DNA of 64,000 bases from an uncultured Nitrososphaerota archaeon (GTDB lineage Archaea > Asgardarchaeota > Njordarchaeia > Njordarchaeales > Njordarchaeaceae): contig CAZFGR010000001.1 of the NCBI GenBank assembly GCA_964518475.1, positions 288,001 to 352,000 of the forward strand, written 5' to 3'. The notes under the pieces were generated by a model, which saw only the letters and a program-made list of their open reading frames with translations, searched no databases and was not told where the DNA came from. A program made the position numbers and the translations under genes. Shown here piece by piece: positions 45,165 to 45,326 of the stretch; the stretch's first letter is position 1, and each line of letters starts with the position of its first letter.

Positions 45165-45326
45165 ATGCAAGCGGGTATTACGACTGGATATTATTTGGAA
45201 TTAATCCTTTACGTGATAGGCATTATTCTAATAATAGCATTACTTGCCTTTCATTATCTAACATATGAACCGACAATTGTTAGGGAGGAAAAGCGCAGAA
45301 GAAGACGCCAACGCAGAAAAAAGTAA
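45165..45326 (+). CDS. 53-aa single-TM micro-protein, OST4-like (not in ORF track)
   Basis: MQAGITTGYYLELILYVIGIILIIALLAFHYLTYEPTIVREEKRRRRRQRRKK*; GGAGGT SD at 45152; starts 3 nt after upstream stop. Confidence 0.75.
   Translation: MQAGITTGYYLELILYVIGIILIIALLAFHYLTYEPTIVREEKRRRRRQRRKK

What the first reader, a model, noticed from the sequence alone, without database searches (positions are those of the whole stretch)
45165..45326. Unannotated 53-aa OST4-like membrane micro-protein
Seen: an ORF below the track cutoff, with a GGAGGT SD and translational coupling to the upstream gene. It has one TM helix and a poly-Arg tail. Known (from memory): human OST4 is [28 protein letters not shown], i.e. 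IT...G-x9-(Y/F)HY. This ORF reads GITTGYYLELILYVIG-x9-FHYL with identical G-to-aromatic-HY spacing. Asgard homologs of several OST subunits have been reported, but I am not aware of an OST4 homolog, and its size would hide it. Homology is inferred from a short motif.
Basis: partly seen in the sequence, partly recalled or inferred. Interest (0 to 1): 0.8.

Follow-up and report, generated by a model that had tools for sequence, protein, structure and literature searches.

The report
Ost4-like membrane micro-protein in Njordarchaeota
A real, conserved 53-residue one-helix membrane protein of an Asgard (Njordarchaeota) archaeon is predicted to sit on the glycosylation enzyme STT3/AglB where eukaryotic OST4 sits, but sequence alone does not prove common descent and Asgard Ost4 relatives were already reported in 2023.

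Summary
The ORF at 45165-45326 (+) is real and under purifying selection. It starts 3 nt after the stop of a 225-aa membrane/PH-domain gene, and a GGAGGT lies 7 nt upstream. It has one TM helix and a poly-Arg tail, and it contains G-x9-FHY. Relatives named by the tools are Candidatus Njordarchaeota (Asgard).

It belongs to a family of 33-53-aa micro-proteins found across Njordarchaeales and in four other families of the phylum. Only the His and a Leu are conserved; the Gly and the aromatic vary.

Pfam Ost4 does not match the window protein. A protein-language-model search puts a 38-aa ortholog next to Ost4 clusters.

A complex prediction docks the protein on the first and last TM helices of this genome's eukaryote-like STT3, the published OST4 groove. 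The score was 0.76 against 0.00 for the best control.

Verdict: probably an Ost4-type STT3 subunit (about 0.6). It is not a first: Eme et al. 2023 reported Asgard Ost4 homologues. This scan has also followed up the same kind in Hermod-, Thor- and Njordarchaeia genomes.

The parts
45165..45326 (+). 53-aa micro-protein gene (ATG to TAA), the Ost4-like candidate
   Evidence: orthologs; purifying selection
45152..45157 (+). GGAGGT Shine-Dalgarno-like hexamer, inside the last codons of the upstream gene and 7 nt before the ATG
   Evidence: G002 has the same GGAGGAGGT upstream, the other orthologs have weaker purine-rich runs
45189..45257 (+). Codons for the single TM helix (about residues 9-31). 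It includes E12, G19, L27 and F29-H30-Y31. H30 is invariant and L27 nearly invariant in the 25-member alignment.
   Evidence: residues 4-36 form the predicted STT3 interface
45282..45323 (+). Codons for the basic tail REEKRRRRRQRRKK, predicted to be cytoplasmic. It is genus-specific: other genera have short acidic tails.
44484..45161 (+). Upstream 225-aa gene with 4-5 TM helices and a C-terminal PH-like (bacterial-PH type) domain. Its stop lies 3 nt before the micro-ORF.
43786..44367 (-). Divergent 193-aa neighbour: signal peptide, beta-sandwich, TM helix and basic tail. Its model's best PDB fold matches are chains of Sec61-TRAP structures. It is also the direct neighbour of the micro-ORF in genome G008, which belongs to another family of the order.

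Best explanation
The ORF encodes an Ost4-type accessory subunit of this archaeon's eukaryote-like oligosaccharyltransferase.

Proposed mechanism: the protein is a single N-out/C-in TM helix. It packs antiparallel into the groove between the first and last TM helices (TM1 and TM13, with TM3 and TM12 edges) of STT3/AglB. There it would stabilise the catalytic subunit, and by analogy with yeast it would offer a surface for an Ost3/DC2-like partner.

Shown: it is a real gene under purifying selection. It is one member of a micro-protein family found across Asgard genomes.

Shown only in silico: docking at the OST4 groove.

Inferred: common descent with eukaryotic OST4, any stabilising function, and the cytoplasmic role of the genus-specific poly-Arg tail.
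For: 1. Real gene. There are syntenic orthologs in the genus, and pN/pS is about 0.15-0.3.

2. One family. Gapless alignments link genus g1 to genera g2 and g3 of the order and to families f6, f7, f16 and f24 of the phylum. Njord members against the other Asgard members give hhalign 97%, P 5.5e-11.

3. Likeness to OST4.
- hhalign of the family against human plus yeast OST4 gives 74-85% probability, P 3e-5 to 6e-6, score 24-26.5. The register pairs G19 with G15 and H30 with H26.
- None of 300 full-column shuffles and 1 of 300 TM-core shuffles reach that score.
- OST4 against real TM-rich profiles (the 225-aa family and the 13-TM STT3 family) scores only 12.8 and 13.7.

4. Language-model features. 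The three best named clusters for the 38-aa ortholog L090 are all PF10215 Ost4, with scores 0.86, 0.86 and 0.81 and 190-192 of 256 shared features. The tool rates hits under 0.9 as leads only.

5. The partner is eukaryote-like. The genome's AglB best matches STT3A and yeast Stt3 in the PDB, E 1e-61 and 9e-56.

6. Docking.
- Complex prediction gave ipSAE 0.76 in three runs against a best control of 0.00. That mark was reached by 58 of 80 solved complexes and 2 of 110 mismatched pairs. Partner pLDDT was at least 76, and the runs agree in at least 90% of contacts.
- The interface covers STT3 residues 23-50 (first TM) and 468-487 (last TM before WWDYG), plus 149-157 and 428-439.
- A review states that Ost4 is nestled between TMH1 and TMH13 of Stt3 (PMC7226087).
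- The lowest-error contacts use micro-protein residues 22, 23, 26 and 27. In the hhalign register these are Ost4 residues 18, 19, 22 and 23, inside the 18-24 stretch whose charge mutations destabilise Stt3-Ost4-Ost3.

7. Context. The neighbouring 193-aa gene folds like a chain of Sec61-TRAP structures. A weak OST3_OST6-like ORF lies 18 kb away.

8. Literature. Eme et al. 2023 report Ost4 homologues in most Asgard classes.
Against: - Pfam Ost4 gives no match to the window protein at E<=10 and no six-frame match in the genome. Only 2 of 25 family members match, best E 0.044, no better than unrelated TM families such as LapA_dom.
- No Asgard genome of 400 has a six-frame match over the Pfam cut-off.
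- hmmsearch of the family profile against the PDB does not find OST4.
- As a single sequence, the window ORF ranks only 11th of 768 TM-like small ORFs of its own genome against OST4.
- The non-Njord Asgard subset alone gives only 29% against OST4.
- The Gly and the aromatic of the motif are not conserved, and His is Glu in two library members.
- The language-model search shows no Ost4 for the window protein itself or for its residues 5-41.
- STT3 is 185 kb away.
- The docking pass may be 'from memory' of solved STT3-OST4 complexes. The controls were unrelated natural proteins that may not have been TM helices.
- The lines of evidence all read the same 25 residues, so they are not independent.
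Confidence: 0.6

Rival explanations
1. It is a small subunit or assembly partner of the upstream 225-aa TM/PH-domain protein. It would be made in fixed proportion by translational coupling and have nothing to do with STT3.
For: There is a 3-nt gap, and the SD lies inside the last codons of the upstream gene. The adjacency is kept in all 6 genus genomes that hold the locus, with gaps of -11 to +24 nt.
Against: The 225-aa family occurs in 130 of 301 Asgard genomes searched, but a micro-ORF lies downstream only in this genus. In genus g2 the ortholog instead overlaps the start of a roughly 290-aa methyltransferase-like gene beside a translation-GTPase gene. In G008 it lies beside the 180-aa signal-peptide protein, and the 225-aa gene is on another contig. 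A faithful partner would be expected to keep the neighbourhood.
Confidence: 0.15
2. It is an Asgard-specific single-pass micro-protein of another function, for example a membrane-protein assembly or regulatory peptide. Its likeness to OST4 would be convergence of a hydrophobic helix ending in an aromatic-His interface motif.
For: No threshold-level sequence match to Ost4 exists. Only H30 and L27 are conserved. Human and yeast OST4 themselves score only E 0.067 against each other, so 25 residues carry little power either way. Docking programs can place a helix in a remembered groove (caveat).
Against: The profile-profile score lies far above shuffles and above 18 real TM-helix profiles. The language model independently names Ost4 for an ortholog. 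Docking scored 0.76 against 0.00, with a physically coherent antiparallel N-out orientation at the published site.
Confidence: 0.22
3. It is not a gene: a chance ORF in the 3' untranslated end of the upstream gene.
For: It is short and below common gene-calling cut-offs.
Against: It is conserved across an order and beyond with frame-preserving changes. pN is far below pS. Only 11 clusters among 1.84 billion representatives match, all of 37-53 aa with the same layout.
Confidence: 0.03

Closest known systems
Eukaryotic OST4 (human OST4, yeast Ost4p; Pfam PF10215; PDB 2LAT, 1RKL, 6EZN, 6C26, 6S7O)
   Same: It is a single N-out/C-in TM helix with G-x9-(Y/F)-H at the cytoplasmic end of the helix. 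Family members of 34-38 aa place the His at position 25-27, as in OST4 (H26). It is predicted to pack between TM1 and TM13 of STT3. The contact residues fall in the stretch equivalent to Ost4 18-24.
   Different: The window copy has 4 extra N-terminal residues and a 14-residue poly-Arg/Lys tail, 53 aa against 36-37. The conserved N-terminal MI(T/S)D-xQL of OST4 is absent; an invariant Glu (E12) sits 7 residues before the Gly instead. There is no Pfam-level match. The Gly and the aromatic vary within the archaeal family.
Asgard Ost4 homologues reported by Eme et al. 2023 (Nature 618:992; PMC10307638)
   Same: Same claim and same phylum. They state that Ost4 and Ost5 homologues occur in most Asgard classes, which fits the family traced here in five families of the phylum.
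   Different: The held text and supplements give no accession or sequence for their Ost4. I could not check that theirs is this family, nor that Njordarchaeales were scored as having it. Their supplementary discussion names only OST5 and WBP1.
Generic TM-plus-basic-tail Pfam families (LapA_dom PF06305, Form-deh_trans PF09163, HemY_N PF07219)
   Same: These are the best, sub-threshold Pfam matches of the window protein, E 0.02-0.13. They reflect a hydrophobic helix followed by basic residues.
   Different: All lie far below their gathering scores. They are bacterial families with other contexts and are treated here as compositional noise.

Membership tests
Ost4 (Pfam PF10215) | Match to the family HMM at or above the gathering score (25 bits) | tested here: not met
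   There is no match at E<=10 for the window protein or for its genome in six frames. Of 25 family members, 2 match, best E 0.044. None of 400 Asgard genomes is over the cut-off.
Ost4 (Pfam PF10215) | Profile-profile similarity to bona fide OST4 in a consistent register | tested here: inconclusive
   hhalign gives 74-85% probability, P 3e-5 to 6e-6, pairing G19 with G15 and H30 with H26. This is above shuffles and above real TM profiles. It is below the level usually taken as proof, and the non-Njord subset alone gives only 29%.
Ost4 (Pfam PF10215) | Mini-protein of about 35-40 aa with one TM helix, N-terminus outside (lumenal) and C-terminus cytoplasmic | tested here: met
   Family members are 33-53 aa with one hydrophobic stretch. 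The basic tail and the antiparallel packing against TM1 and TM13 in the model give an N-out/C-in orientation. The window copy is longer, at 53 aa.
Ost4 (Pfam PF10215) | Conserved G-x9-Y-H at the end of the helix, shared by human and yeast | tested here: inconclusive
   The motif is present in the window copy as G-x9-F-H. Within the archaeal family His is invariant in 25 aligned members. The Gly is A, S or another residue, and the aromatic is N, S or H in many. His is Glu in two library members.
Ost4 (Pfam PF10215) | Binds STT3 between TMH1 and TMH13 | tested here: met
   This was tested in silico only. ipSAE was 0.76 in three runs against a best control of 0.00, a mark reached by 58 of 80 solved complexes and 2 of 110 mismatched pairs. 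Partner pLDDT was at least 76 and the runs agree in at least 90% of contacts. The interface is the first and last TM helices of STT3, and the site matches the review PMC7226087. The pass may reflect memory of solved STT3-OST4 complexes.
Ost4 (Pfam PF10215) | Needed to recruit Ost3/Ost6 (or DC2) into subcomplex II | not testable with these tools
   Only a weak OST3_OST6-like ORF exists in the window, at 26515-26850 (-), 19.1 bits against a cut-off of 27. No three-chain job was available.
Two-gene unit with the TM/PH-domain protein | Conserved adjacency to the 225-aa gene wherever both genes occur | tested here: not met
   The two genes are adjacent only in genus g1. They are separate in g2 and in G008.

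The most novel reading that the evidence does not exclude
In this genus the Ost4-like helix has gained a long poly-Arg cytoplasmic tail and has been placed in a translationally coupled unit with a membrane-anchored PH-domain protein, next to a TRAP-alpha-like gene. This would point to a physically linked OST-TRAP-translocon module in an archaeon. In that module the tail would contact the ribosome or anionic lipids, as a forerunner of the ribosome-bound OST-A translocon of eukaryotes.
Probability: 0.1. Interest if true: 0.65.

Novelty: new member of a known kind. Interest (0 to 1): 0.4.

Why it matters
If it holds, a Njordarchaeota archaeon has the smallest subunit of the eukaryotic oligosaccharyltransferase catalytic subcomplex (STT3-Ost4-Ost3/DC2). 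That adds to the case that a multi-subunit OST predates eukaryotes. The practical gains are three:
- a defined 25-member alignment of the Asgard family;
- a concrete predicted interface (micro-protein residues 15-30 against the first and last TM helices of STT3) that can be tested by mutagenesis or co-purification;
- the observation that the Gly and the aromatic of the 'OST4 motif' are dispensable in archaea, while the His and a Leu are kept.

The kind itself is already published (Eme et al. 2023), so this is a refinement and not a discovery.

Tried and rejected
- The search for related loci in genome contigs failed with alignment A1 because no stretch was conserved enough. With the single protein it found nothing.
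The OST4 profile therefore rests on only two PDB-verified sequences, human and yeast.
- An hmmsearch with that two-sequence profile against all small ORFs of the genome ranks the micro-ORF 320th. HMMER has little power at this length.
- PDB hmmsearch with the family profiles found no OST4.
- The supplements of Eme et al. held here contain no Ost4 accession.
- The JBC 2024 paper on Asgard translocons (PMC11417166) does not mention Ost4.
- Pfam TRAP_alpha and Ribophorin_I gave no useful match in the genome.
- Expression: no RNA holder listed. The only holders were sediment and vent DNA metagenomes, one of them a possible source of this DNA.
- The pair of micro-protein and 225-aa protein was not folded, because the cap is one complex job.
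- The idea that the micro-ORF is a split-off helix of the 225-aa protein was rejected. That family has the same length (218-241 aa) with or without the micro-ORF.

Full report
**Observation**

The window holds an ATG-to-TAA ORF of 53 codons at 45165-45326 (+). GGAGGT lies at 45152-45157, 7 nt before the ATG. The upstream 225-aa ORF (44484-45161) stops 3 nt before the ATG. The product has one hydrophobic stretch (about residues 9-31) and the tail REEKRRRRRQRRKK. It contains G19-x9-F29-H30-Y31.

Yeast Ost4 (1RKL) shares G15-x9-Y25-H26.

Among 768 TM-like small ORFs in the six frames of the 2.33-Mb genome, only two have G-x9-[YF]H with a hydrophobic spacer.

**Organism**

The window is G000:C1:288001-352000. 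The genome is 91% complete in 121 contigs. Close relatives of the upstream gene lie on contigs titled Candidatus Njordarchaeota or Njordarchaeum guaymaensis.

**Is it a gene?**

Yes.
- The five other genomes of the genus that hold the locus have a 42-52-aa ORF in the same place, -11 to +24 nt after the 225-aa gene, with 25-69% identity.
- Non-synonymous differences are 0.12-0.24 per site against saturated synonymous differences of 0.75-0.95.
- The exact protein is present in public protein collections. Orthologs are deposited in GenBank as hypothetical proteins of Njordarchaeia.

**The family**

- A profile of the genus members found 38-aa ORFs in a second genus of the order (pattern MPVNW..VE..L..LG.L..ILILL[NS]HY.EAK..EEE). 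It also found a 43-aa ORF in a third genus.
- An exhaustive search of 1.84 billion representative proteins found only 11 proteins at E<=0.001, all of 37-53 aa.
- With the wider profile, 33-41-aa ORFs appeared in four further families of the phylum. Examples are MDFTVI...LFYHTY.IGKSEE in 15 of 31 genomes of one family and MIDFNVV...LAYHFFAMEEAD in 6 of 12 genomes of another.
- All 25 sequences align without internal gaps. H30 is invariant and L27 nearly so. The Gly is often A, S or another residue, and the aromatic before the His is N, S or H in many. Two library members have Glu for the His.
- Njord members against the others give hhalign 97%, P 5.5e-11.
- The gene neighbourhood is not kept. 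The link to the 225-aa gene exists only in this genus, although that gene family is in 130 of 301 Asgard genomes. In the second genus the micro-ORF overlaps the start of a methyltransferase-like gene.

**Is it Ost4?**

By the curated test, no.
- Pfam PF10215 gives nothing for the window protein or its genome.
- It matches 2 of 25 family members at best E 0.044.
- It matches no Asgard genome of 400 over its cut-off.

These tests have little power at this length: human and yeast OST4 find each other only at E 0.067.

Profile-profile comparison is more telling.
- None of 300 column shuffles and 1 of 300 TM-core shuffles reach that score.
- OST4 against the real TM-rich profiles of the 225-aa family and of STT3 scores only 12.8 and 13.7.

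A protein-language-model search places the 38-aa ortholog next to three Ost4 clusters (0.86, 0.86, 0.81; 190-192 shared features). It finds nothing of the kind for the window copy.

**The partner**

The genome's only STT3/AglB is at C1:145690-148122, 185 kb away. Its best PDB matches are mammalian STT3A (E 1e-61) and yeast Stt3 (E 9e-56). Its annotated frame carries about 76 N-terminal residues that orthologs lack. I therefore used residues 77-621 with an alignment of 23 orthologs.

Complex-prediction results:
- ipSAE was 0.76 in all three runs against a best control of 0.00. That mark was reached by 58 of 80 solved complexes and 2 of 110 mismatched pairs.
- Partner pLDDT was at least 76, and the runs agree in at least 90% of contacts.
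- The interface is STT3 23-50 and 468-487, plus 149-157 and 428-439.

By hydropathy and by the alignment to STT3A, residues 23-50 and 468-487 are the first TM helix and the last one before WWDYG. A review states that Ost4 is nestled between TMH1 and TMH13 of Stt3 (PMC7226087).

The contact pairs run antiparallel to both helices. This puts the N-terminus outside and the basic tail in the cytoplasm.

The tightest contacts use residues 22, 23, 26 and 27. In the hhalign register these are Ost4 residues 18, 19, 22 and 23, within the stretch where charge mutations break Stt3-Ost4-Ost3.

Caveats:
- Such complexes are solved, so the pass may show likeness and not binding.
- The control partners may not have been TM helices.
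- My own alignments were used, so the calibration holds only roughly.

**Context**

- The upstream protein models as 4-5 TM helices plus a PH-like domain (pLDDT 86).
- The divergent 193-aa neighbour models as a signal peptide, beta-sandwich and TM helix (pLDDT 85). Its best PDB fold matches are chains of Sec61-TRAP structures (8rjc_5 at E 4e-7, also 9n9j_5, 8b5l_q, 8btk_TA and 8b6l_E). Generic FnIII-like domains of GH3 enzymes score nearly as well, and there is no sequence match.
- In G008 this gene and the micro-ORF are direct divergent neighbours.
- A weak OST3_OST6-like ORF lies at 26515-26850.

**Known or new?**

Eme et al. 2023 state that they identified Ost4 and Ost5 homologues in most Asgard classes. 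The held supplements give no accession. Notes of this scan show the same kind already followed up in Hermod-, Thor- and Njordarchaeia genomes, with the same conclusion. These are unchecked AI notes, and I reached my reading independently before reading them.

**Verdict**

This is a real gene. It is probably (about 0.6) an Ost4-type subunit of a eukaryote-like STT3. It is a new member of a known kind, set apart by a 4-residue N-terminal extension, a poly-Arg tail and a genus-specific coupling to a PH-domain membrane protein.

Noticed in passing
window 43786-44367 (-): The 193-aa protein has a signal peptide, a beta-sandwich, a TM helix and a basic tail. Its AlphaFold model (pLDDT 85) has chains of ribosome-Sec61-TRAP structures as best PDB fold matches (8rjc_5 E 4e-7, 8btk_TA, 8b6l_E). 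GH3 FnIII-like domains score nearly as well, and Pfam TRAP_alpha does not match.
   Followed up: partly
window 44484-45161 (+): The 225-aa protein has 4-5 TM helices and a C-terminal PH-like (bacterial-PH type) domain, with no Pfam match. The family is found in 130 of 301 Asgard genomes searched, often as tandem paralogs, with an invariant E143/N145 in the ...WDYWIIEPNQ... stretch.
   Followed up: partly
window 26515-26850 (-): A 162-aa frame gives a sub-threshold match to the TM part of Pfam OST3_OST6 (19.1 bits, cut-off 27, E 7.5e-4 for the genome). It is a possible DC2/Ost3-like partner.
   Followed up: no
outside the window: G000:C1:145690-148122 (-), locus L021:559-2991: The STT3/AglB open frame of 811 aa has about 76 N-terminal residues, including a hydrophobic stretch, that no ortholog aligns to. 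The true start is probably near V77 (GTG). WWDYG is at residue 594.
   Followed up: partly
loci L176/L141 (G037), G079, L169 (G089), L167 (G062), L171 (G016), G005:C39: In several other Asgard genomes the micro-ORF lies within 5-50 kb of STT3. The distance is about 4-5 kb in G037 and G079, 23 kb in G089, 30 kb in G005, 37 kb in G062 and 50 kb in G016. That is closer than expected for random places in 2-4-Mb genomes, but never adjacent, and relatedness was not corrected for.
   Followed up: partly
loci L089, L090, L091, L112, L120 (genus g2): The 38-aa ortholog sits between a divergently transcribed translation-GTPase gene (aIF5B-like by its G-motifs) and a roughly 290-aa methyltransferase-like gene, whose start it overlaps or abuts.
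   Followed up: no
window 42003-42896 (+): A 297-aa protein has a weak N-terminal match to Fuz_longin_1 (E 0.0036), followed by several hydrophobic stretches.
   Followed up: no
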